The translations under genes and the position numbers were made by a program. Of a DNA stretch of 64,000 nucleotides, positions 24,604 through 49,414 are shown piece after piece; position 1 is the stretch's first letter; each line of letters starts with the position of its first letter. The notes under the pieces were generated by a model. The model was not told the origin of the DNA, did no database searches, and was given only the letters and a program-made list of their open reading frames with translations. Source of the DNA: Candidatus Parcubacteria bacterium (GTDB taxonomy: Bacteria; Patescibacteriota; Patescibacteriia; UBA1558; GWA2-36-10); assembly GCA_018669975.1 (NCBI GenBank), contig JABHSK010000009.1, forward strand, positions 51,127-115,126. The letters run 5' to 3'.

Positions 24604-24924
24604 TTATTTTTTATCAGCTGACTTTTCCTCTGCCTTTGGCTTGGTGGCCACTGGCTTAGCGCCTGCCTGCTTAATCATAGCCGCGAAACGTTGTTTTTTA
24701 CGATTTCCAGTGTTAACTTTAATGATGTTTGACTTTACAGCTTTATCTACTGCTTTTTGTAAAGTATGTATCAATTCACCAGATTTCTTATCAATATTAC
24801 CGGCTGATATAGCTTTTTTACCAGACTTGATGATCTCTCTGATATTTCTTTTAACTAAAGCATTACGCTTTGTAAGCTTTTCGGTCTGCCTCAAGTGCTT
24901 GATGGCTGATTTCTTATTTGGCAT
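24604..24924 (-). CDS. rpsT: 30S ribosomal protein S20 with extended basic C-terminal tail
   Basis: MPNKKSAIKHLRQTEKLTKRNALVKRNIREIIK. Confidence 0.85.
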   Translation of the reverse strand: MPNKKSAIKHLRQTEKLTKRNALVKRNIREIIKSGKKAISAGNIDKKSGELIHTLQKAVDKAVKSNIIKVNTGNRKKQRFAAMIKQAGAKPVATKPKAEEKSADKK

Positions 24925-26043: not shown

Positions 26044-26073
26044 TTGACAAAATTTTATAAAGTTGGCTACAAT
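26044..26073 (+). promoter_or_regulatory. sigma70-like promoter (TTGACA, 18 nt spacer, TACAAT)
   Basis: -35 at 26044-26049, -10 at 26068-26073; followed by AGGAGGTG SD at 26111-26118. Confidence 0.45.
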
Positions 26074-26124
26074 ATAGACATGAAAGTTCCCTCTTCAACT
26101 TTATAAAGAAAGGAGGTGAAAAAT

Positions 26125-26367
26125 ATGGGTCAGCGTTGCTATTGCCCAGTTTCCTTAAATGTTACTGTTGGACTATTCCTTATTTTTTTGTCCATATTAT
26201 CTTTTTTTGAAATCTGGGATGTATATATGCCATTTTGGCTATCGGTGTTAAGTTTGTTTCTTGGCATTATGGCTATTATCATGAATTCTATAAATCGTAT
26301 ACATGATAAGGTGAATGATCTGAGTGTCGAGAAGGCTGATGAATTACATGCCAATGAAGGTTACTAA
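26125..26367 (+). CDS. small two-helix membrane protein (80 aa), unknown function; start set at ATG 26125 (ORF track GTG 26116)
   Basis: Strong SD 6 nt upstream, own promoter and terminator; two hydrophobic helices, CYCP motif. Confidence 0.45.
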   Translation: MGQRCYCPVSLNVTVGLFLIFLSILSFFEIWDVYMPFWLSVLSLFLGIMAIIMNSINRIHDKVNDLSVEKADELHANEGY

Positions 26368-26384
26368 AAAGAATAAACTAAAAT

Positions 26385-26419
26385 AAAAACACCCGTAATA
26401 AACAAATAGGGTGTTTTTA
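26385..26419. terminator. bidirectional intrinsic terminator (shared by the small gene and PBP1A)
   Basis: aaaaacacccgtaataaacaaatagggtgttttt. Confidence 0.55.
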
Positions 26420-41755: not shown

Positions 41756-43631
41756 GCTCTGTTTCTTCAGTCAATTCTAATTTAGGTACAACGTCCTTGA
41801 TTAGGCTAATTGCATTAATTCCCTGATAAGAAAAAATTTGATAAGAGTTTATATCTGAACTGAGATAGTAATAAAAATGTACTAACTCATTCTCTGGCCA
41901 ATCTTTTTCTGAAAATACACCATAGTCTAGGGGCATATCAAAATCATAATTTCGCCCATAAAAACGCACCAGATAACTATTGTCCTCGGTGTGATTTTTT
42001 TGTAAAGTAAGCTCCAGTACCCCATCAGTAAAATTTGCCCCTATTAAAAAATCATCTTCCGCAAACCCTATTGGTTTCTCGTCGGTGCGATATAATTCTA
42101 TATTATCCTGAGTGGCATGTTGCTTGTTTTGCCAAAGTAATAAATTATTCCAAGCCTTAATTAAAGAATAATCGTTTAATACCTGTTGCCAATTATTTGG
42201 AATATCATCTCTCTTGTATTCTAAAAAAGAAGCTATATTTTTTTCTACAATAGTGGCTAAAAATTGAGAATTGTCCACCAGTATATAATCTACTGGCGGT
42301 AACTCAAACTCAAAACCACAAAACTGCCCACAACCAAAGTATGAGCCAGCCAAAGTGTAAACCTCTTGTCTGGTGCTAGCTGGCGCAATAAAGGTTGACT
42401 CCGCCACCAAGCTAGCCTCTGGTGGTATCTGAGCAAAAAATTCTTGCTTAGCTTGAACTAATTCCCTTGGATACTTTTTAAATAATATATCTTTAGCTGG
42501 CGATAAAAAGATTGAAAAATAAACTATTGTGACTACAAAAATTAATGTAACAAAACCAAAATTTTTATAAATATGTTTACTGCCCGAAAATCTTTCCTGT
42601 AGAAGAACCCTTTTAAAAGCAAAAATTAGGGCTATAAAAATCCCCGGCATAAATAATAGAGTATAGTGCGTACTATAAGCCATGAAATTAAAACCGCTAC
42701 CACTTAAAAGAATCTGTAAAAAAGGTAAAAAGGCCAAAGAGAGGTATCTAGATTTCAAAAATGGCAGAAATAAGACTGGCAACATAATTACTGCAATGCT
42801 GAGAAAATTATTTATATTTATTAAATGCCAAATAAACTGTATTGGATGAGTTAACCAACTAATAATGATACCTAAAATACTTTCTCCCCCCAGCCAACCA
42901 TAATAAGCAAAAAACTTATAGCTACCCGCTATAGAAAAATAACTAATAATCTTAAGTGCAGATAAAAAATAAACAACTGGTAATAACAAACTAAACAGTT
43001 TCCATTTTAAACTACGTTTATGCAGTATTGCCAACCAAGTGAATGCTAACAGTATTAAGCTAATATCTTCTCTGACAAGTAGTGCTAAAATAAAAAATAA
43101 CACAAATAATTTAAAACTTCTCTGCTGATAAAAATAAAATACCCAGAAAATAAAAAATACAGCTATCGGCAACAGGTGAAATTCAAAGACATTGGCGCTG
43201 TGCACAAAAGGATTAAGTAGCCACATTAAAGCAACAATCAATGACACTACTTTGTTTTTAACGATATTTCTACTAATTAAATATATAGGCCAAGCGCTCA
43301 ATCCCAAAATAACGCTCTGTAATATTAGTAATGTTTCTGGCGTCTGCCAAAACCAATAAAAAGGCAGTAATAAAAAAATGATTGGTGTAAAATGGTCAGC
43401 TAAATAAATGTTGAAATTAACCGTTCCGGCGAACCAATCACCGTGCAGGGTATTAAAAAAGACTTGATTAAAGATTGCTAAATCATAGGCGTTGTAGCTA
43501 AAATTATAGTACTTCTTAAGGCTTAAAAAGGCCATTAGGAGCACGTATAGCACTGTGGCAATACCCAACACCAAAGCACTGTGTTTATTAGCAAAATTGC
43601 TTATTTTTGAGCTAAAATGTGACATATCCAT
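41730..43631 (-). CDS. large polytopic membrane protein, DUF2079-like (putative GT-C-fold glycosyltransferase)
   Basis: 633 aa; N-terminal YDLAIFNQ ... LADHFTPIIFLLLPFYWFW resembles DUF2079 conserved block; C-terminal extracytoplasmic domain. Confidence 0.4.
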   Translation of the reverse strand: MDMSHFSSKISNFANKHSALVLGIATVLYVLLMAFLSLKKYYNFSYNAYDLAIFNQVFFNTLHGDWFAGTVNFNIYLADHFTPIIFLLLPFYWFWQTPETLLILQSVILGLSAWPIYLISRNIVKNKVVSLIVALMWLLNPFVHSANVFEFHLLPIAVFFIFWVFYFYQQRSFKLFVLFFILALLVREDISLILLAFTWLAILHKRSLKWKLFSLLLPVVYFLSALKIISYFSIAGSYKFFAYYGWLGGESILGIIISWLTHPIQFIWHLININNFLSIAVIMLPVLFLPFLKSRYLSLAFLPFLQILLSGSGFNFMAYSTHYTLLFMPGIFIALIFAFKRVLLQERFSGSKHIYKNFGFVTLIFVVTIVYFSIFLSPAKDILFKKYPRELVQAKQEFFAQIPPEASLVAESTFIAPASTRQEVYTLAGSYFGCGQFCGFEFELPPVDYILVDNSQFLATIVEKNIASFLEYKRDDIPNNWQQVLNDYSLIKAWNNLLLWQNKQHATQDNIELYRTDEKPIGFAEDDFLIGANFTDGVLELTLQKNHTEDNSYLVRFYGRNYDFDMPLDYGVFSEKDWPENELVHFYYYLSSDINSYQIFSYQGINAISLIKDVVPKLELTEETELRDLSSDK

Positions 43632-43669
43632 ATTATATCACATTAAAAATGCCGGGGGTATGCTAAATA

Positions 43670-43698
43670 TTGACAAAATAGATGAAATATGATATAAT
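43670..43698 (+). promoter_or_regulatory. perfect sigma70 consensus promoter (TTGACA, 17 nt spacer, TATAAT)
   Basis: TTGACA at 43670-43675, TATAAT at 43693-43698; drives the GC-rich lipoprotein gene. Confidence 0.6.
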
Positions 43699-43780
43699 TA
43701 TAAGATTCTTAATGTGGCCTTTGTATAAGGTCCGACTGTTCATTTCTTCGCTAGGAAACTCTAAATAGGAGGTCGTCATC

Positions 43781-44503
43781 ATGAAGACGTCACAATTGTT
43801 AATCTCGTTACTCTTGGTAGCAGTTATGAGCGCTATCCTGAGTGGCTGTGGTGCCACAAAACAATGGTATGGTTCATCACCTAATGGAACCTACGATCAT
43901 CGAGGCCCGCGCCTCGATACCAACAACTCACCCAAGGTCGAAAATATCATCGACAACCAAAGCAAAGAAATGCTTTTTGTCGACATCGAAGGACATGACC
44001 TGAGTTTCAGTGAGCATTTGGTTCAGGTCAACCCTGGTACCAAGCTGACTCGCAAGGGTCGTAGCTATCGTCGCCTCAAGGTGACTGTTCGCTGGATGGG
44101 CACTGGCTTCCGCAACACCATCGGTCACACCGAAGAGGAGATGAAATTCCTGATGCCCGGCCTATACTCCGGTGACCCTATTGTCATCACCGATGCCATG
44201 CTTCGAGGTCAGATGCCTATGCGTGGCATCATCATCTGCCAGGGTGACCCCACCCTATATCAAGATGATCGAGGTCATCGCTTCAAGATGAACAACGGTG
44301 ACAAAATTGAAGTCAACATGTCTTCTGGTCCAATTGAGTTCAAATTCAGATCACTGCGAGATCCCTCTCGCTTTGGCAGCAGGACTTATCCTGATTGCAT
44401 TGATCTCGAAACTGAACAATATGAAGTCGTTGGACCCGATGGCAAAAAGAAGCGTTATGACTTCACTGTCATTGTCGATGAATCCTGGCGTCATCGCTGG
44501 TAG
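43781..44503 (+). CDS. lipoprotein of unknown function, compositionally foreign (GC about 50%)
   Basis: AGGAGG SD; signal peptide plus lipobox ILSGCG; codon usage rich in CGC/CGT/CTG/GGC/ATC unlike neighbours; no family recognised. Confidence 0.6.
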   Translation: MKTSQLLISLLLVAVMSAILSGCGATKQWYGSSPNGTYDHRGPRLDTNNSPKVENIIDNQSKEMLFVDIEGHDLSFSEHLVQVNPGTKLTRKGRSYRRLKVTVRWMGTGFRNTIGHTEEEMKFLMPGLYSGDPIVITDAMLRGQMPMRGIIICQGDPTLYQDDRGHRFKMNNGDKIEVNMSSGPIEFKFRSLRDPSRFGSRTYPDCIDLETEQYEVVGPDGKKKRYDFTVIVDESWRHRW

Positions 44504-44525
44504 TCAAAAACTACCGAAATACAAA

Positions 44526-44559
44526 GCGCCGCAGCTCGAAAGCTGCGGCGCGTTTTTTT
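44526..44559. terminator. strong GC-rich intrinsic terminator (11-bp stem, T8), shared with the convergent pilin-like operon
   Basis: gcgccgcagctcgaaagctgcggcgcgttttttt. Confidence 0.7.
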
Positions 44560-44572
44560 AATAAAAATATAT

Positions 44573-44956
44573 TTATGGATTAAGCGGAGTATTACCAGTT
44601 GAAGCTTTTAGTAGGCTATCAAAAACAAATCTAACAATAGCATACGAAGTAACAACTATAACTAAACCTATGGTTGCATTCTTAATTGATTCCTTGGCTT
44701 CTTTTATTCTATCTGCATTACCTTGAGAAGTCATCCATTTGAAACCACCTAAAATAATCAAAACAACAAAGAGTGTCCCTAAGACAGCGAGCAAACCTCT
44801 AACGATAGATGCAATTACATCTGTAATTGGTCTTTCAATTAATCCCGTTTGACCAGCTATTTGATCTAGTCCTCCAGCAGACTCTAAAGGACCCGCTGAA
44901 GCAACCAACGGAGCTAAAGCAAACAATAAAATAAACTTGTATTTTAAATTTTTCAT
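44573..44956 (-). CDS. small secreted two-helix protein, paralog 1 of 4 (pilin-like, VirB2/TrbC-type architecture)
   Basis: Signal peptide, hydrophobic helix, conserved GGFKWMTSQGNADRIKEAK core, second hydrophobic helix. Confidence 0.45.
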   Translation of the reverse strand: MKNLKYKFILLFALAPLVASAGPLESAGGLDQIAGQTGLIERPITDVIASIVRGLLAVLGTLFVVLIILGGFKWMTSQGNADRIKEAKESIKNATIGLVIVVTSYAIVRFVFDSLLKASTGNTPLNP

Positions 44957-45043
44957 TATATTTAGAAAGTAAAGCCTAGTGGAGGCTAAGCTCTAGTAGG
45001 TCATAATTCAATGACCTACTATAGTCTAGACTACATAGGTCTA

Positions 45044-45388
45044 TTAGATAGTTTCGTTTTGTAAAGATGTTAGTACGAAACGTGATATTGCGTAAGCAGT
45101 CAAGATGATGACCAAACCAACTATACCTGCTCCAATAAGCTTTTTAGCTTCATCAACTTTATCAGTGTTGCCTTGAGAAGTCATCCATTTGAAACCACCC
45201 ATAAGGATGATCAAAGTAGCTAAAATTCCCAAGAAACCCAAGACGATGTTTACAACAGAAGATGCAGTGTCACCTAGTTCTTTAGTACCCAGGTTTGAAT
45301 TCTTCATTGAATTAACACCGTATACGTCAAGCTGAGCTGATGCTGCCATCGGCATGAAAAGTAATGCGCTAGTGATAAGTTTGTTCAT
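45044..45388 (-). CDS. small secreted two-helix protein, paralog 2 of 4 (pilin-like); has its own promoter and strong SD
   Basis: GGFKWMTSQGNTDKVDEAK core; GGGGGTG SD 7 nt upstream. Confidence 0.45.
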   Translation of the reverse strand: MNKLITSALLFMPMAASAQLDVYGVNSMKNSNLGTKELGDTASSVVNIVLGFLGILATLIILMGGFKWMTSQGNTDKVDEAKKLIGAGIVGLVIILTAYAISRFVLTSLQNETI

Positions 45389-45427
45389 TGTTTCACCCCC
45401 TTTCTAAAAAATAAAAGTATTGTTTAA

Positions 45428-45456
45428 ATTATAAAACAAAATTGACTTTTTTACAA
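45428..45456 (-). promoter_or_regulatory. sigma70-like promoter on the minus strand (TTGTAA, 17 nt spacer, TATAAT) internal to the paralog array, driving paralog 2
   Basis: Reverse complement reads ttgtaaaaaagtcaattttgttttataat; -35 at 45451-45456, -10 at 45428-45433. Confidence 0.5.
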
Positions 45457-45460
45457 TAGA

Positions 45461-45793
45461 TTAGCTAGTGCCAGCCAAAGTACTGAAAAAGTATCTTATT
45501 ATAGCATAGCTCATGAAAATAGCCACTAGTCCGAAAATAGCCCAAACTATAGTGTCTTTTCCTCTTTTTACTTTGTCAGTATTACCAGCTGAGGTCATCC
45601 AAGTGACGCCTCCCCAAACCAACATTAGTAAAGCCACAGCACCAACTATGCCTAATATACCTTTGACAGCAAAACCTATAACCGTAGGTATATCTTCCGC
45701 TGGCAATGGATTGGGCAACTCGGCCGCCTTAACCAACAAAGGCGCAAAGAATAATAATGTAGCCAAAAATGTTTTATGTTTGTTTTTAATCAT
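45461..45793 (-). CDS. small secreted two-helix protein, paralog 3 of 4 (pilin-like)
   Basis: GGVTWMTSAGNTDKVKRGK core; 25-nt gap to paralog 4. Confidence 0.45.
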   Translation of the reverse strand: MIKNKHKTFLATLLFFAPLLVKAAELPNPLPAEDIPTVIGFAVKGILGIVGAVALLMLVWGGVTWMTSAGNTDKVKRGKDTIVWAIFGLVAIFMSYAIIRYFFSTLAGTS

Positions 45794-45818
45794 ATCTATA
45801 TATTAATTTAATATTACC

Positions 45819-46472
45819 TTAAAGTGACGCAGCATTTAATGTGCAAAGATTAGTGTTGCTTCCTGGACACAAGCCAGCTTCAGTTACAGGACCTACTGGA
45901 ATAGCGCCCATTTCACTAAAATCAAAACAAGACCAATTTCCTGAATCATCCAAAAGATTCTTTAATTGACATTTTGTTACGCAGGTTTCGTTGTGGCTAG
46001 ACTTATCACCACTAAAGGTGTCCGTGCCAGTACAAACATAGTTTGTTTCTGTTTCATTACAACGACTATCTTTTGCTTTCTCAGTACAAGAAGCTGCTAT
46101 TTTATATCTTGAATTTGTAACACCCAAAATATCATTAACAAAAAATGATGTTAATAAATAACTACTAAAAGCTATAAACAAAGCAATGAGGGTATTAATC
46201 ATAATCTGCTGACCACGCTTTACTCTGTCAGCATTACCACCAGAAACCAACCATTGAATACCTCCCCAAATAAAATATAGTAGCGCTATTGCTCCCATGC
46301 CACCGAGCAACATTTGAATTAAATAGGTAAAACCTAAAGTGATATCTTCTAGGCTACAATTTCCATCTTTAATACAGGTCTCTGGAAGTTTATCTAAAAA
46401 TCCTTGAGCAAAGCCAACATTTGGCGCCAAGATGACAATTAATAAAATTGAAAAAAATAAAATTTTATTCAT
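45819..46472 (-). CDS. paralog 4 of 4: pilin-like N-terminal module fused to a 110-aa Cys-rich C-terminal domain
   Basis: GGIQWLVSGGNADRVKRGQ core; C-terminal region with 12 Cys (CTEKAKDSRCNETETNYVCTG...CVTKCQ...CFDF...CPGSNTNLC). Confidence 0.45.
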   Translation of the reverse strand: MNKILFFSILLIVILAPNVGFAQGFLDKLPETCIKDGNCSLEDITLGFTYLIQMLLGGMGAIALLYFIWGGIQWLVSGGNADRVKRGQQIMINTLIALFIAFSSYLLTSFFVNDILGVTNSRYKIAASCTEKAKDSRCNETETNYVCTGTDTFSGDKSSHNETCVTKCQLKNLLDDSGNWSCFDFSEMGAIPVGPVTEAGLCPGSNTNLCTLNAASL

Positions 46473-47838
46473 TTGTTTTTGTGTATGTTTTATTAATACG
46501 TTCTACAAATAGTTTGAGCGGTGTGCCCGCTAAATCAAAGGTATATTCTCCAGATACAAGCCCATCTATAATTTCAGCTGTATATTGTTCGGCTAAATCT
46601 ATATTATAACCCTCATACCAGTTATCAGCTGTTAAAACCTGAGAGGCAAAAACCTTTAAATCGGTGTCTTCCATCTGCTCTGCTATCAGAGATCTTAACG
46701 CAGTTGGTTTTTTATTAGCATTTAAATAAACCCTGACAATTTCCTTACCAGAAGCATTCTGAATAAAATCCCAGGCTGAAGGAGCATTGATAGATTTCTT
46801 AGCTACTACTGTTATCCAATAATCTGTATAATATTTTGTCCCTTCGGCTCCTCTAGTTTGAGGAAAGTTAGTAATACCCCAATCAAATACCACACCCCTA
46901 TCTCTTAGCTCATCCGCGTGGTAACTATAGCCGAAAAAATAGGCCAGCCTACCATTGGCAAACATCTCAAAAGCATTTGGCAAATCATCGCTCCAGCTAT
47001 AACTCAGCCTACCAGGTCTAGCAAAATCAGTATAAAAATTAAGCACTTGTGTCAGCCTATCTCTTGATCCGCCATCTTTAATTGGACTAAACCATTCTCC
47101 TTTCATGTTAACATCGCTCTGCAATAATAAACTAGATAAAATATCAAAAAAACGAGGTATGTTATCAGTTCCGCCTAGGGAAACAGCTGAGTACAGCACC
47201 CTATTATCCTCTGTAACCCTGGTTATCTTTGGTACCTGCTCAATTAAATCATGAAAATCTCTCATTGGCTCTGGAATACTAGATTTGTCCAATAGGCTAG
47301 AATTATAAAAAGTCACTAGGGTTTCCAGAGAAAATGGTAAACCGTATATTTTATCATCCAATACTACATCATCATATACTACTGGCACATACCTTGTTTT
47401 AACATCCTGGGGAGATAGACTTTTAAAAGATTTGAGCGTCAGTGTTCGCTCTGGCTTAATAGAGCCCTTCATTTCCCAAATTGGCACGTTAATACTTGGT
47501 GGTATTGGCACTAAACGATGCTGATATTCTTTAAGCCAGGTAACTGGAATAGCGAAAAGGTCTGGACCACGATCATCTGCCCAGGCTTCTAATAATTTTT
47601 GCTCGTACTCCTCGTACCTAAAATTACGATAAGTTATCTTAATTGTTGGATGCTTAGCTTGATATGTATTGATTAAGGGTGCTACTTGAGCAGCTGTATC
47701 CCAAACACCCCAGTATTCTAAATATACTGGTCTATATTCTACTCCTTTTTTACAAGTCATTCCCTGACAACCAAATCCAGCAGAAACAACAAAAACTGCT
47801 AATATTAGAAGTGTGAAAAGTTTTAAATGTCTTTTCAT
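46465..47838 (-). CDS. extracellular solute-binding lipoprotein (ABC-transporter family 1 SBP-like)
   Basis: Signal peptide with Cys (AGFGCQG), 457 aa periplasmic-binding-protein-like; overlaps the paralog 4 start by 8 nt. Confidence 0.55.
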   Translation of the reverse strand: MKRHLKLFTLLILAVFVVSAGFGCQGMTCKKGVEYRPVYLEYWGVWDTAAQVAPLINTYQAKHPTIKITYRNFRYEEYEQKLLEAWADDRGPDLFAIPVTWLKEYQHRLVPIPPSINVPIWEMKGSIKPERTLTLKSFKSLSPQDVKTRYVPVVYDDVVLDDKIYGLPFSLETLVTFYNSSLLDKSSIPEPMRDFHDLIEQVPKITRVTEDNRVLYSAVSLGGTDNIPRFFDILSSLLLQSDVNMKGEWFSPIKDGGSRDRLTQVLNFYTDFARPGRLSYSWSDDLPNAFEMFANGRLAYFFGYSYHADELRDRGVVFDWGITNFPQTRGAEGTKYYTDYWITVVAKKSINAPSAWDFIQNASGKEIVRVYLNANKKPTALRSLIAEQMEDTDLKVFASQVLTADNWYEGYNIDLAEQYTAEIIDGLVSGEYTFDLAGTPLKLFVERINKTYTKTNE

Positions 47839-47846
47839 ATTTTAAA

Positions 47847-48707
47847 CTAAATATTTTTTAAATACTTTTTTAAATAAGCCTTTAACTCTTTCCTTTCGCT
47901 AGCATATTCTAGGGTGGCCTTTAATAAATTCAGTGGATCACCCGTAGTAAGCCATTCTCCGTCTTTAACTTCTTTAGCATAAAATTCTCCGCCAGACTTA
48001 ATATAATCACGAATAGCGTCTACTATCCAAAGTTCCTTGCCTTTGCCTAGTTTGGTTTTCTTCAAAACATCAACAATCTCTTGATTCAAAATCATTCGAC
48101 CAAAGTCAGCTAAACGAGAAGGTGCTTGATCTATCTGTGGTTTTTCCACTATGCCGTCGAGTTGCATTGTTTTTTTATCTTTTAGGCTAACTATACCGTA
48201 TCTATCTACTTGATTACGCGGAACTTCCTGCACACCAATCATCAGATGACCAGTTTTATTATAATCATCTATCATTTGCTTAGCAAAGGGAATTTTAGAT
48301 TTGACCAAGTCGTCTCCCCAGACATACATAAATGGCTCATCCTGGACCAGACTAGATGCTGATAAAACTGGCGTTCCGTTTCCATAGGGACCTTTTTGTC
48401 TAACATAAATAAAATTAGCCATCTCGGAAATCTTTTTAATTTCAGCTAATTTTTCTTTTTTACCTGCTTTAGCTAATTCGTTTTCTAAAGCCCAAGAATG
48501 ATCAAAATGATCTTCTAGTGGTTTCTTATCCCACTTAGTAACTAAAATTATATCTTCGATGCCACCAGCTACTAATTCCTCAACTACCAATTGAATAATT
48601 GGCTTGTCAACAATTGGCAACATCTCTTTGGGCATAGATTTAGTAGCTGGTAATAACCTTGTTCCTGAACCTGCTACCGCTACTATGGCCTTTTTAACTC
48701 TTTTCAT
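47847..48707 (-). CDS. galU: UTP--glucose-1-phosphate uridylyltransferase
   Basis: AIVAVAGSGTRLLPATKSMPKEMLPIVDKPIIQ N-terminal nucleotidyltransferase motif; 286 aa. Confidence 0.85.
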   Translation of the reverse strand: MKRVKKAIVAVAGSGTRLLPATKSMPKEMLPIVDKPIIQLVVEELVAGGIEDIILVTKWDKKPLEDHFDHSWALENELAKAGKKEKLAEIKKISEMANFIYVRQKGPYGNGTPVLSASSLVQDEPFMYVWGDDLVKSKIPFAKQMIDDYNKTGHLMIGVQEVPRNQVDRYGIVSLKDKKTMQLDGIVEKPQIDQAPSRLADFGRMILNQEIVDVLKKTKLGKGKELWIVDAIRDYIKSGGEFYAKEVKDGEWLTTGDPLNLLKATLEYASERKELKAYLKKYLKNI

Positions 48708-48742
48708 GTATATATTATACTAAAATTTAAGCTTTATGTAAA

Positions 48743-49414
48743 TCAATGTCTCTTGAAGATTAATCTGTGATGTTCTACAACGTGAATCAATGCATCAAAA
48801 ATGATTTTAATTAAAACCAATAATATTATAGCTGCAACGTTTAAATCTAAATTGGTCCATACTATAAAATATCCTAATAAAAATAAAGTTATGTGCATCA
48901 CTAATATTCTTTGGTATGGAACAAGCATCTGTTGTCGTAAGCTAATTTTCTTATATTCTTTTTTCCATAAAAAATTATATAAAAATGATGCGCCGTGGCT
49001 AACAAACAGAAAAAATAATGATAATAGAATTCCACCAATATATTCCGTGACCAATAAGAAGGCATTGTAGCCAGAGCTAACAACTTCTAGGTTTGGTTTA
49101 AATATAATCAACACCAATGATAAATGCACAAACATAAATAGTGCATAATGAACTATAAACATTGGAATTAACGAGGAATTCATTGATTTGTTTATTTTTA
49201 TCATTCGCAGCACGTTCAAAAAACCAACCACCCCACTCTCCAACCAATACAAAAGCATTATGGAAAAAATATCCCATTTAAAAAATAAAACACCGATCAG
49301 AGGAACTAAATTTGCACCGATCAATAAAAGCACTGACGGATGTTTTAAACTTTTTACCAATAATTCCTTTCGGCTTGGTTTTTTGAAAGTCGCGCTAAAA
49401 TCAAAAGCTAACAT
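48743..49414 (-). CDS. polytopic membrane protein, unknown function
   Basis: 223 aa, about 6 TM helices. Confidence 0.3.
   Translation of the reverse strand: MLAFDFSATFKKPSRKELLVKSLKHPSVLLLIGANLVPLIGVLFFKWDIFSIMLLYWLESGVVGFLNVLRMIKINKSMNSSLIPMFIVHYALFMFVHLSLVLIIFKPNLEVVSSGYNAFLLVTEYIGGILLSLFFLFVSHGASFLYNFLWKKEYKKISLRQQMLVPYQRILVMHITLFLLGYFIVWTNLDLNVAAIILLVLIKIIFDALIHVVEHHRLIFKRH

What the first reader, a model, noticed from the sequence alone, without database searches (positions are those of the whole stretch)
45389..45460. Internal consensus promoter and strong SD single out paralog 2 as the highly expressed member of the array
Seen directly on the minus strand: ttgtaa-17nt-tataat (-35 at 45451-45456, -10 at 45428-45433), followed by a GGGGGTG Shine-Dalgarno 7 nt before the paralog 2 ATG at 45388. 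A 9-bp perfect hairpin (gtaggtcat-aattca-atgacctac, 45003-45026) lies between paralog 2 and paralog 1. It could attenuate read-through into paralog 1. In contrast, paralogs 4 and 3 are translationally close-packed behind the long upstream operon. Inference: stoichiometric control typical of major versus minor pilus subunits.
Basis: partly seen in the sequence, partly recalled or inferred. Interest (0 to 1): 0.5.

Follow-up and report, generated by a model that had tools for sequence, protein, structure and literature searches.

The report
Expression signals marking the main pilin gene
One of four tandem pilin-like genes in an uncultured ultrasmall marine bacterium has its own promoter, an unusually strong ribosome-binding site, optimised codons and a conserved RNA hairpin after it. 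All are kept in dozens of related genomes, so it is very probably the abundantly made subunit, which is sensible rather than surprising biology.

Summary
The hairpin sequence is also real, but it lies at 44996-45019, not 45003-45026.

The four paralogs are VirB2-like T4SS_pilin proteins (PF18895). They sit in a conserved cluster, GalU-SBP-p4-p3-p2-p1, of a marine Patescibacterium related to Komeilibacteria.

- Consensus promoters are enriched in this window's spacers: 14 observed against 2.4 expected.
- About 50 of 53 genes have no strong SD, and p2's is among the strongest.
- In about 72 related loci only the p2 orthologue keeps a promoter (49%) and a strong SD (71%). Neighbouring genes score 0-20% and 0-7%.
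- p2 has the most biased codon use of 52 genes (77% C-ending against 22%). A 70%-identical paralog elsewhere has neither the SD nor the bias.

The hairpin is the tip of a 58-nt structured RNA that is absent from Rfam. It has strong covariation and was found only between p2 and p1. It lacks a U-tract, so it is more likely an mRNA-stability or processing element than a classical terminator.

No expression data exist, so high expression remains inferred.

The parts
45451..45456 (-). -35 hexamer TTGTAA of the p2 promoter
   Evidence: The identical TTGTAA-17-TATAAT occurs upstream of p2 orthologues in L002, L009, L010, L016 and L021. Many other loci have TTGAAA, TTGATA or TTGAAT at the same 17-nt spacing.
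45428..45433 (-). -10 hexamer TATAAT. The predicted transcription start is about 45420-45422, giving a leader of about 33 nt.
   Evidence: An exact TATAAT occurs in 38 of 71 distinct orthologous upstream regions, ending a median of 41.5 nt before the ATG (34-52 nt in 34 of the 38). Here the distance is 39 nt. The start site is inferred, not mapped.
45393..45403 (-). Extended Shine-Dalgarno AAAGGGGGTGA, 5 nt before the ATG. It is complementary to a canonical 16S tail UCACCUCCUUU, with one central G-U pair.
   Evidence: -16.5 kcal/mol against a 13-nt anti-SD. It is the strongest of the 52 long genes and sits in an unstructured leader (-3.2 kcal/mol, z = -0.65). It is conserved in orthologues and invariant in 10 independent assemblies.
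45044..45388 (-). p2: a 114-aa VirB2-like pilin with a signal peptide and a hairpin of two hydrophobic helices. Proposed abundant (major) subunit.
   Evidence: PF18895 scores 36.5 bits against a cut-off of 26.6. The predicted structure has helices at 38-69 and 75-113. C-ending fraction of two-fold pyrimidine codons is 20/26 = 0.77 against 0.22 for the window. There are 1328 homologues, with orthologues 55-90% identical.
44979..45036 (-). Conserved 58-nt structured RNA element between p2 and p1.
   Evidence: Covariance model R1 scores 64.1 bits, E = 1.9e-12, and this is the only locus hit in the 64-kb window (the opposite-strand hit at the same coordinates scores 38 bits). In a 44-sequence alignment 96.7% of cells are paired and 10 of 20 pairs show compensatory changes, with 0 of 500 shuffles as good. 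G-U pairs indicate sense-strand RNA. There is no Rfam match. All 39 exact metagenome matches lie directly after a p2-type gene, and 33 are followed by a p1-type gene where the contig extends that far.
44971..44994 (-). Second, weaker hairpin (8-9 bp including G-U pairs) followed by the U-rich tail UUUACUUUCU (44962-44970). It is lineage-specific and terminator-like.
   Evidence: The terminator scan lists 44987-44973. Folding gives -9.4 kcal/mol, z = -2.0. A similar 3' sequence was seen only in the 90%-identical relative L106. It partly replaces the basal stem seen in other genomes.
44573..44956 (-). p1: a 127-aa T4SS_pilin paralog downstream of the RNA element. It has no SD and no promoter of its own.
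   Evidence: PF18895 43 bits. SD energy is only -2.4 kcal/mol. C-ending codon fraction is 0.115. Orthologues are 33-57% identical in the closest 23 loci, down to about 30% in more distant ones.
44526..44551 (.). Strong bidirectional intrinsic terminator that ends the pilin operon and the convergent lipoprotein-like gene.
   Evidence: 11-bp stem with 9 G-C pairs and U-tracts on both strands.
45461..45793 (-). p3: a 110-aa T4SS_pilin paralog. It starts 25 nt after p4 and has no SD.
   Evidence: PF18895 47.4 bits and TrbC 28.6 bits.
45819..46472 (-). p4: a 217-aa T4SS_pilin paralog with a Cys-rich C-terminal extension of about 105 aa. Its start overlaps the SBP stop by 8 nt.
   Evidence: PF18895 31.5 bits over residues 40-111 only. 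The overlap is seen.
46465..48707 (-). Upstream genes of the same transcription unit: a solute-binding protein (46465-47838) and a GalU-like nucleotidyl transferase (47847-48707).
   Evidence: Pfam hits SBP_bac_1, SBP_bac_8 and NTP_transferase. The gene order GalU-SBP-p4-p3-p2-p1 is conserved in dozens of loci.
48714..48742 (-). Promoter-like site TTTACA-17-TATAAT (11/12) in the 35-nt spacer upstream of the GalU gene. Probable start of the upstream transcription unit.
   Evidence: It is only weakly conserved in relatives: 16% reach 10/12 or better.

Best explanation
p2 (45044-45388, minus strand) is the abundantly produced member of a conserved four-paralog array of VirB2-like pilins. The array lies in the cluster GalU-SBP-p4-p3-p2-p1 of a marine Patescibacterium related to Komeilibacteria.

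Its output is raised above its neighbours at three levels:
1. **Transcription.** A sigma-70-type promoter in the 72-nt p3-p2 spacer adds to read-through from the promoter upstream of GalU.
2. **Translation initiation.** An 11-nt Shine-Dalgarno site sits in an unstructured A/U-rich leader, in a genome where about nine genes in ten have no SD.
3. **Elongation.** Codons are optimised (C-ending two-fold pyrimidine codons).

Directly after p2 lies a conserved imperfect hairpin RNA of about 22 bp. It has no U-tract. It most likely serves as a 3'-end barrier or processing site that keeps the p2 segment of the p2-p1 transcript more abundant than the p1 segment. In this genome a weak terminator-like second hairpin may add to the effect. 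p1, p3 and p4 have no SD and ordinary codons, and would be made at lower levels.

Shown: sequence features, their conservation, codon bias and RNA covariation. Inferred: promoter activity, expression ratios, the function of the RNA element, and pilus formation.
For: **The features are present and unlikely by chance.**

**SDs are rare in this genome.**
- Only p2, the convergent lipoprotein-like gene and a small membrane-protein gene at 26125 have strong SDs among about 53 genes.
- The S20 ribosomal protein gene has none.

**Comparative evidence.**
- The gene order is conserved in Komeilibacteria, Parcubacteria, Nomurabacteria and other genomes.
- In about 72 non-redundant loci the first p2 orthologue has a promoter of at least 10/12 in 49% and an SD of -8 kcal/mol or stronger in 71%. 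The other nine gene categories score 0-20% and 0-15% (0-7% apart from additional p2 copies).
- The -10 position is conserved.

**Codon bias.**
- p2 scores 0.77, rank 1 of 52, p = 5e-9. S20 scores 0.43 and trigger factor 0.36, so the measure tracks expected expression.
- Pooled orthologues: p2 0.42, against p1 0.25, p3 0.30, p4 0.22 and SBP 0.27. p2 ranks top in 24 of 39 loci.

**Paralog control.** P0072, 70% identical and listed on a contig of the same length (844,504 bp), has no SD, a codon fraction of 0.24 and a canonical terminator.

**Protein conservation.** p2 is the most conserved pilin of the array.

**RNA element.**
- Covariation is strong.
- It is specific to this spacer.
- Stability is -26 kcal/mol, z = -5 to -7, in relatives.
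- A different two-hairpin RNA occupies the same position in Falkowbacteria-type loci.

**Literature.**
- T4SS pilins are among the most highly expressed secreted genes in Paceibacteria metatranscriptomes (PMC10936435).
- VirB2 arrays are widespread in Patescibacteria (PMC12102498).
- Intercistronic protective hairpins set operon stoichiometry in E. coli, as in malE-malF and papBA (PMC5927463).
Against: - No RNA-seq, transcription-start or proteomic data for this organism were available, so every expression statement is a proxy.
- The -35 hexamer matches only 4 of 6 positions.
- The 16S rRNA 3' end of this lineage could not be retrieved, so SD complementarity rests on the canonical tail and on the consensus of the few SDs seen.
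- The central SD base is G in 44, A in 19 and T in 8 of 71 regions. This is not what selection for maximal pairing alone would give.
- S20 lacks an SD, so an SD is not a general mark of high expression in this genome.
- The invariant 5' arm of the RNA element, which includes the perfect palindrome TAGTCTAGACTA, is more conserved than a passive exonuclease barrier needs. This suggests sequence-specific recognition that the explanation does not identify.
- In L015 a second p2 copy without a complete promoter follows the element, so read-through must be substantial.
Confidence: 0.68

Rival explanations
1. The hairpin is a factor-independent transcription attenuator. Most transcripts from the p2 promoter would stop at 44970-45020, so p1 receives only residual read-through.
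For: - In this genome a second hairpin (44971-44994) is followed by UUUACUUUCU and is listed by the terminator scan.
- The two adjacent hairpins fold stably: -28 kcal/mol for the 90-nt spacer, z = -3.95.
Against: - In 40 or more related sequences the conserved element is followed by A-rich sequence, not U-rich.
- The same group uses canonical U-tract terminators after stand-alone paralogs and after p1.
- p1 has no promoter of its own in the 6-25 nt that follow the element, so it depends on read-through.
- In L015 a second p2 copy lacking a full promoter lies downstream of the element.
Confidence: 0.2
2. The 58-nt element is a sequence-specific binding site for a protein, either on the RNA or, through the palindrome TAGTCTAGACTA, on the DNA. 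Its role would be to regulate p1 translation or transcription, for example by coupling p1 to p2 or repressing it, rather than to stabilise p2 mRNA.
For: - The 5' arm UAGUCUAGACU is invariant in 44 sequences, while its pairing partner varies through G-U wobble.
- The base of the stem ends only 6-17 nt before the p1 start codon in most loci. This is within reach of an initiating ribosome in an SD-less gene.
- Each contig in the metagenome scan, including three of 0.55-0.86 Mb, appears only once in the hit list.
Against: - No candidate binding protein is encoded in the cluster.
- The same palindrome occurs nowhere else in the window.
- G-U pairs and compensatory changes argue for an RNA fold rather than a DNA operator.
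- Falkowbacteria-type loci have an unrelated structured RNA at the same place, which favours a generic structural role.
Confidence: 0.25
3. The internal promoter provides conditional, separately regulated expression of p2-p1, for example on host contact. It would not set a constitutive high level, and the p2:p1 ratio would be set mainly by translation.
For: - The -35 hexamer is imperfect (4/6).
- An imperfect inverted repeat brackets the core promoter (I6, 45418-45428 and 45448-45458, 82% complementary).
- p2 is also reached by read-through, because no terminator follows p3.
Against: - The bracketing repeat is not conserved in orthologues.
- Strong codon bias and slow protein evolution indicate sustained high expression over evolutionary time.
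Confidence: 0.15
4. The p2-type protein is not a pilus subunit at all. It would be an abundant small two-helix membrane protein working with the co-conserved solute-binding protein and cell-envelope genes, and the 'pilin' label would be a family name only.
For: - No VirB4, VirB6 or VirD4 gene lies in the 64-kb window.
- The array is always linked to an SBP and GalU and flanked by envelope glycosylation genes.
- The structure search finds only generic helical hairpins, such as ATP synthase subunit c, with no hit at E <= 0.001.
- The profile finds no solved VirB2 or TraA structure.
Against: - All four paralogs pass the PF18895 cut-off, and p3 also passes the TrbC/VirB2 cut-off.
- A VirD4/TraG-like coupling protein gene lies next to a p2-like paralog, apparently in the same genome.
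- VirB2-like arrays away from virB4 are common in Patescibacteria, and one such array is reported as essential in Southlakia epibionticum (PMC12102498).
Confidence: 0.2
5. The promoter and SD are chance matches in A/T-rich spacer DNA, or foreign signals carried in with a recently acquired gene.
For: Over the 5.3-kb region 43500-48800, promoter-like matches of at least 9/12 are no more frequent than in shuffles: 19 against 16.9.
Against: - Both signals are conserved in position across orthologous loci, from about 90% down to about 50% protein identity.
- Synteny is stable.
- Shuffles of the spacer give 1.2% and 1.9%.
- Promoter matches are enriched in spacers: 14 against 2.4.
- GC3 of p2 is only modestly raised (0.36) while NNC is 0.77. 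This is the pattern of translational selection, not of foreign composition.
Confidence: 0.02

Closest known systems
VirB2-like pilin arrays of Patescibacteria (PF18895 / PF04956), surveyed in PMC12102498
   Same: Tandem arrays of 2-11 highly divergent VirB2-like genes on the chromosome, often away from virB4. This window has four paralogs that pass the PF18895 cut-off.
   Different: That survey reports the arrays as most abundant in Microgenomatia and Saccharimonadia, and the passages read do not analyse expression signals. Here the array belongs to a Komeilibacteria-like group. It has a fixed gene order with GalU and a solute-binding protein. One member carries a conserved promoter, SD, codon bias and a downstream RNA element.
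Differential mRNA decay in operons through intercistronic protective hairpins (malE-malF, papBA), as reviewed in PMC5927463
   Same: A stable hairpin lies right after the cistron whose product is needed in excess, inside a polycistronic unit. For papBA the favoured product is the major pilin.
   Different: Neither processing nor stabilisation has been shown here. The element has an invariant sequence arm and is specific to one locus, unlike REP-type or terminator hairpins. The organism is a Patescibacterium whose RNases were not examined.
RNase III processing hairpins between cistrons of phage T7 early mRNAs (my own knowledge, not checked here)
   Same: About two helical turns of imperfect duplex with small internal loops at fixed positions, between cistrons. 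After cleavage the upstream mRNA keeps a 3' hairpin.
   Different: No RNase III gene lies in the window and no cleavage data exist. The resemblance is structural only.
Highly expressed T4SS pilins in Paceibacteria metatranscriptomes (PMC10936435)
   Same: Proteins annotated as type IV secretion system pilins were among the five most highly expressed unknown-function secreted genes per genome.
   Different: A different class of Patescibacteria, with archaeal hosts and no analysis of which paralog or why. It supports plausibility and is not evidence about this locus.
Selective use of strong SDs in SD-poor genomes, for example rpsU in Bacteroidia (my own knowledge, not checked here)
   Same: Most genes lack an SD and a handful carry a very strong one.
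   Different: Here the SD-bearing genes are envelope or secreted proteins (p2, a lipoprotein-like gene, a small membrane protein), not a ribosomal protein. Whether the anti-SD is freely available in this lineage is unknown.

Membership tests
T4SS_pilin (PF18895) / VirB2-TrbC pilins | Profile score above the curated cut-off | tested here: met
   PF18895 scores: p1 43.0, p2 36.5, p3 47.4, p4 31.5 bits, against a cut-off of 26.6. For TrbC (PF04956) only p3 passes (28.6 against 27.9); p2 scores 20.4.
T4SS_pilin (PF18895) / VirB2-TrbC pilins | Small protein with an N-terminal signal peptide followed by a hairpin of two hydrophobic helices | tested here: met
   The AlphaFold model of p2 has helices at 2-15, 38-69 and 75-113, with pLDDT 81-91 over the hairpin. 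An Ala-Ser-Ala motif precedes Gln20 (sequence). Cleavage itself is inferred.
T4SS_pilin (PF18895) / VirB2-TrbC pilins | Detectable similarity to solved VirB2, TraA or TrbC pilin structures | tested here: inconclusive
   The profile search of PDB sequences finds no pilin. Foldseek finds only generic helical hairpins, with no hit at E <= 0.001. The fold is too simple to discriminate.
T4SS_pilin (PF18895) / VirB2-TrbC pilins | Genetic linkage to T4SS machinery (VirB4, VirB6, VirD4) | tested here: not met
   None of the window's genes matches these families. A VirD4/TraG-like gene lies 2.5 kb from a second p2-like paralog elsewhere, apparently in the same genome.
T4SS_pilin (PF18895) / VirB2-TrbC pilins | Polymerises into an extracellular filament | not testable with these tools
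   Needs microscopy or biochemistry.
Sigma-70-type promoter | -35 and -10 hexamers close to TTGACA and TATAAT, 16-18 nt apart, in a spacer upstream of a gene | tested here: met
   TTGTAA-17-TATAAT, 10/12, lying wholly within the 72-nt p3-p2 spacer. This class of match is enriched in the window's spacers: 14 against 2.4.
Sigma-70-type promoter | Conserved in position in orthologous loci | tested here: met
   49% of p2 orthologues have a match of at least 10/12, against 0-20% for the other genes of the cluster. The -10 ends 34-52 nt before the ATG in 34 of 38 cases.
Sigma-70-type promoter | A transcript 5' end 6-8 nt downstream of the -10 | not testable with these tools
   No transcriptome data were accessible.
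Shine-Dalgarno ribosome-binding site | Purine-rich stretch complementary to the 16S 3' tail, 4-9 nt before the start codon | tested here: met
   AAAGGGGGTGA lies 5 nt before the ATG and gives -16.5 kcal/mol against a canonical 13-nt tail. Caveat: the 16S rRNA of this lineage was not found in any held sequence. The canonical tail is inferred from the consensus AAAGGAGGTGA of the other SDs seen.
Intrinsic (factor-independent) terminator | G+C-rich stem-loop immediately followed by a U-tract | tested here: not met
   The conserved element has an A/U-rich basal stem and an A-rich 3' flank in relatives. Only the lineage-specific second hairpin at 44971-44994 has a weak U-rich tail.
Any curated Rfam family | Covariance-model match to the p2-p1 spacer | tested here: not met
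   No overlapping match at E <= 10 in the window. In five related loci searched at E <= 1, the only overlapping matches were chance-level hairpin hits far below gathering score: mir-3923 in L065 (26.5 bits against 94) and rli38 in L056 (34.5 against 49).
RNase III-type intercistronic processing site | About 20 bp or more of imperfect duplex between cistrons | tested here: met
   20-22 pairs with small internal loops at fixed positions, 96.7% paired across 44 sequences.
RNase III-type intercistronic processing site | Cleavage by RNase III in vivo or in vitro | not testable with these tools
   No RNase III gene is in the window. The rest of the genome was not examined.

The most novel reading that the evidence does not exclude
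The 58-nt p2-p1 element, and its unrelated two-hairpin counterpart in Falkowbacteria-type genomes, would be a dedicated and previously undescribed cis-regulatory RNA. A specific nuclease or RNA-binding protein would recognise its invariant UAGUCUAGACU arm to fix the ratio of major to accessory subunits of a Patescibacteria surface filament. In parallel, the few very strong SDs in an otherwise SD-poor genome would define a small regulon of envelope proteins translated by a distinct initiation route.
Probability: 0.25. Interest if true: 0.6.

Novelty: new member of a known kind. Interest (0 to 1): 0.42.

Why it matters
Patescibacteria are mostly uncultured. Their VirB2-like pilin arrays are thought to matter for the host-dependent lifestyle, yet nothing is known about which paralog forms the bulk of any structure.

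The analysis nominates one paralog as the major subunit across a whole group of genomes, using signals that can be read from sequence alone. It gives a concrete target for antibodies, metaproteomics and cryo-ET.

It also supplies two unannotated, covariation-supported RNA motifs, and an example of selective SD use in an SD-poor genome. Both can be tested directly with existing Saanich Inlet / NE Pacific metatranscriptomes.

The regulatory logic itself is familiar from other pilus and multi-subunit operons: an internal promoter, a strong ribosome-binding site and an intercistronic hairpin.

Tried and rejected
- **Rfam.** Searches of the window spacer and of five related loci found no family for either RNA element.
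- **Solved structures.** The PDB sequence-profile search and Foldseek on the p2 model gave no specific pilin match, only generic helical hairpins.
- **16S rRNA.** A search for a 16S 3' end in the 119 loci held at that point found nothing, so the anti-SD could not be checked.
- **Phase variation.** Slippage of the G5 run in the SD is rejected: the leader is identical in 10 independent assemblies from different samples.
- **Regulon.** The palindrome TAGTCTAGACTA as an operator shared with other genes is rejected: there is no other copy in the window beyond chance.
- **Integron attC-like or other recombination site.** Rejected for three reasons. Synteny is fixed, the G-U pairs indicate RNA, and I saw no GTTRRRY core by eye.
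- **Promoter for p1.** No -35/-10 pair was found inside or after the element, and only 6-25 nt separate it from the p1 ATG.
- **Repeat bracketing the p2 promoter.** The inverted repeat (I6) is not conserved in orthologues.
- **Transcript-like contigs.** Looking for them among assemblies carrying p2 returned only contigs that appear to be metagenomic.
- **R1 traA mRNA.** A literature search for the stable processed traA mRNA of plasmid R1, which I recalled as an analogue, found nothing, so it is not used.
Full report
**1. Is the observation there?**

Yes. On the minus strand the 72-nt spacer between paralog 3 (stop at 45461) and paralog 2 (ATG at 45388) reads TCTA-TTGTAA-AAAAGTCAATTTTGTTT-TATAAT-...-AGAAAGGGGGTGAAACA-ATG.
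- The -35 is at 45456-45451, the spacer is 17 nt and the -10 is at 45433-45428. The scan scores it 10/12, with no TGn extension.
- The SD is an 11-nt match, AAAGGGGGTGA, at 45403-45393. It ends 5 nt before the ATG.
As RNA it forms an 11-bp stem (44994-45021, -15.9 kcal/mol, z = -5.75).
- p4 overlaps the end of the upstream gene by 8 nt, and p3 follows p4 after 25 nt.

**2. What are the genes?**

- All four paralogs pass the Pfam cut-off for T4SS_pilin (PF18895), the VirB2/TrbC-like pilins. p3 also passes TrbC. p4 has an extra Cys-rich C-terminal part of about 105 aa.
- A model of p2 shows a signal helix and a hairpin of two long hydrophobic helices. Searches against solved structures were non-specific.
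- The window is chromosomal. It carries rpoB, rpoC, ftsK, recA, nusA, tig, polA, rpsT and many envelope glycosylation genes, at about 35% G+C. It contains no VirB4, VirB6 or VirD4 gene.
- p2 is identical to a protein of an NCBI 'Candidatus Parcubacteria bacterium' assembly, on a contig of 844,504 bp. The closest named relatives are Komeilibacteria. The same sequence recurs in Saanich Inlet / NE Pacific metagenomes.

**3. Chance or function: evidence within the window.**

- Over the local 5.3 kb, loose promoter matches are as frequent as in shuffles. That count alone says nothing.
- Matches of at least 10/12 lying wholly inside the window's 28 spacers number 14, against 2.4 +/- 1.7 in dinucleotide shuffles of those spacers (0 of 300 shuffles reach 14). 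The consensus is therefore meaningful in this organism.
- Shuffling the p3-p2 spacer gives such a promoter in 1.2% of trials and an SD of -10 kcal/mol or stronger in 1.9%.
- The genome is poor in SDs. Of 52 long genes, only p2 (-11.9 kcal/mol) and the convergent neighbour at 43781-44503 (-10.9) have strong ones. Three more are at -5 to -7.1, one at -3.8, and the rest at -3.3 or weaker.
- A third strong SD belongs to a small unlisted gene at 26125.
- The ribosomal protein S20 gene has no SD.
- The p2 leader is unstructured.

**4. Comparative evidence.**

- p2 has 1328 homologues. A genome scan with an alignment of 35 orthologues returned 80 loci.
- The gene order DUF6498-GalU-SBP-p4-p3-p2(x1-2)-p1(x1-n)-DUF2079 recurs in dozens of them. 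A convergent lipoprotein-like gene is often present after p1.
- AAAGGGGGTGA or AAAGGAGGTGA sits 5 nt before the p2 orthologue's ATG in most loci.
- The closest 25 or so loci keep a TTGnnA-17-TATAAT promoter at the same place. It is identical to the window's in five of them.
- Quantified over about 72 non-redundant loci, the first p2 gene has a promoter of at least 10/12 in 49% and a strong SD in 71%. The other nine gene categories score 0-20% and 0-15%.
- The -10 ends 34-52 nt before the ATG in 34 of 38 cases. Here the distance is 39 nt.

**5. Independent evidence for high expression.**

- For the two-fold pyrimidine codons and Ile, p2 uses the C-ending codon 20 times in 26 (0.77). The window average is 0.22. 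This is rank 1 of 52, p = 5e-9.
- GC3 of p2 is only 0.36, so this is not a general compositional shift.
- S20 (0.43) and trigger factor (0.36) are also raised, as expected if C-ending codons are translationally preferred.
- In syntenic loci the pooled values are p2 0.42, p1 0.25, p3 0.30, p4 0.22 and SBP 0.27. p2 is highest in 24 of 39 loci.
- A 70%-identical paralog, listed on a contig of the same length (844,504 bp), serves as a control. It lies near a VirD4/TraG-like gene. It has no SD, a fraction of 0.24 and a canonical terminator.
- p2 is also the most conserved of the four pilins.
- Metatranscriptomes of another Patescibacteria class found T4SS pilins among the most highly expressed secreted genes (PMC10936435).

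**6. The hairpin is part of a conserved RNA.**

- Downstream of p2 orthologues the sequence UAGUCUAGACUAUAGUAGG-[variable stem-loop]-CCUACUAGAGCUURGAYUA recurs.
- In a 44-sequence alignment a 20-pair structure is 96.7% paired. Ten pairs show compensatory changes, no shuffle out of 500 is as good, and pairing collapses to 30-41% when partners are slid.
- Frequent G-U pairs place the structure on the sense-strand RNA.
- Relatives fold at about -26 kcal/mol, z = -5 to -7.
- An exact 19-mer scan of metagenome contigs gave 39 hits. Every one lies directly after a p2-type gene, and 33 are followed by a p1-type gene where the contig extends that far. Each contig appears once in the hit list, including three of 0.55-0.86 Mb.
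- A covariance model finds the element at a single locus in the window, and in none of 55 more distant loci except one truncated case.
- Rfam has nothing like it.
- The element is followed by A-rich sequence, not U-rich. The same group uses canonical terminators elsewhere.
- In this genome and its 90% relative, the basal stem is partly replaced by a second weak hairpin with a U-rich tail.
- Falkowbacteria-type loci carry a different two-hairpin RNA at the same position: 25 pairs, 18 with compensatory changes, from 10 sequences.

**7. How it most likely works.**

Shown: the sequence signals, their conservation, the codon bias and the RNA structure.

Inferred:
- The unit starting at the 11/12 promoter upstream of GalU (48742-48714) reads through SBP, p4 and p3. 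These genes are tightly packed and have no SD.
- The internal promoter adds transcripts that start near 45420.
- The very strong SD and the optimised codons give p2 a much higher translation rate.
- The hairpin RNA holds the 3' end of the p2 segment, as a barrier to 3' exonucleases after cleavage, as a double-strand-specific processing site or as a partial terminator. p1 would then be made at a lower level from the same transcripts.
- p4, with its extra Cys-rich domain, is a reasonable candidate for a low-copy accessory or tip subunit.

The invariant 5' arm of the RNA suggests recognition by a specific factor that I could not identify.

**8. Comparison with what is known.**

- Tandem VirB2-like arrays of 2-11 genes are already documented in 383 Patescibacteria assemblies (PMC12102498). 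The array as such is therefore known.
- Internal promoters, strong ribosome-binding sites and intercistronic protective hairpins are established ways to set subunit stoichiometry, as in malE-malF and papBA (PMC5927463).
- What is new here:
  - one paralog is identified as the high-output member across a whole group of genomes;
  - the array has a fixed association with a solute-binding protein and GalU;
  - two RNA motifs are unannotated;
  - SDs are used selectively in an SD-poor genome.
- Membership in the VirB2-like family rests on profile scores and topology. Linkage to T4SS machinery is not met in the window, and filament formation is untested.

**9. Limits.**

- No expression data were available.
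- The 16S tail was not available.
- The start codons of some distant orthologues were called automatically, so the 71% figure for SDs is a lower bound.
- The central SD base varies (G 44, A 19, T 8 of 71). This is unexplained.

**10. Verdict.**

The finding is a good, testable example of a familiar regulatory design in a poorly known group. It has moderate interest.

Noticed in passing
window 26044-26415 (+): An unlisted small gene (ATG 26125, stop 26367) encodes an 80-aa protein with two hydrophobic helices, beginning MGQRCYCPV. It has a promoter TTGACA-18-TACAAT (26044-26073), an SD GAAAGGAGGTGAAAAAT and a U-tract terminator. It is the third strong-SD gene in a window where about 50 genes have none.
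   Followed up: partly
window 43670-44503 (+): A convergent lipoprotein-like gene of 240 aa has no Pfam match. It has the only 12/12 promoter in the window (with a TG extension), an SD TAGGAGGT, G+C 0.49 against about 0.35, and a C-ending codon fraction of 0.54. It is a conserved neighbour of the pilin array in several relatives (for example L001, L002, L003, L006, L028), where its pooled fraction is also 0.54. It is probably also highly expressed.
   Followed up: partly
L034, L038, L043, L056, L057, L059, L063, L073, L077, L079, just after the p2-type gene (e.g. L056:4348-4418): A second, unrelated structured RNA occupies the same position in Falkowbacteria-type genomes: GUGGUUCUCA..UGGGAAUCAC, followed by a long hairpin closed by CACUGG/CCAGUG and then AAUAA. 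It has 25 predicted pairs, 18 of them with compensatory changes, from 10 sequences. One representative (L056) gave no significant Rfam match.
   Followed up: partly
L120:3795-4400: A second p2-like paralog (P0072, 70% identical) lies after a tRNA gene and 2.5 kb downstream of a VirD4/TraG-like coupling-protein gene. It has no SD, ordinary codons (0.24) and a canonical terminator. Two neighbouring genes there (peptidase M50 and a 132-aa protein) do carry strong SDs.
   Followed up: yes
window 45396-45400 and orthologous positions in L001-L119: The central base of the SD core is G in 44, A in 19 and T in 8 of 71 distinct upstream regions. Most orthologues therefore keep a G-U wobble rather than the perfectly pairing GGAGG. 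The G5 run does not vary in length among 10 assemblies of this species.
   Followed up: partly
window 45819-46140 (-): Paralog 4 carries a C-terminal extension of about 105 aa with about eight cysteines and no Pfam match, beyond the pilin domain. It could be an adhesin-like or tip domain.
   Followed up: no
window 44573-48742 and L001-L032, L081-L119: The pilin array is always preceded by a family-1 solute-binding protein and a GalU-like UTP-glucose-1-phosphate uridylyltransferase. It is flanked by DUF6498 and DUF2079 membrane proteins. No T4SS ATPase or channel gene is nearby. The meaning of this fixed association is unknown.
   Followed up: partly
window-wide, e.g. 24604-24924 (rpsT): About 50 of 53 genes in the window, including ribosomal protein S20, have no strong Shine-Dalgarno sequence. 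Translation initiation in this organism is therefore mostly SD-independent.
   Followed up: partly
L015:3555-4445; also L005, L006, L013: Some relatives have two tandem p2-type genes. In L015 each copy is followed by its own copy of the RNA element, and the second copy has an SD but no complete promoter. This implies read-through of the element.
   Followed up: partly
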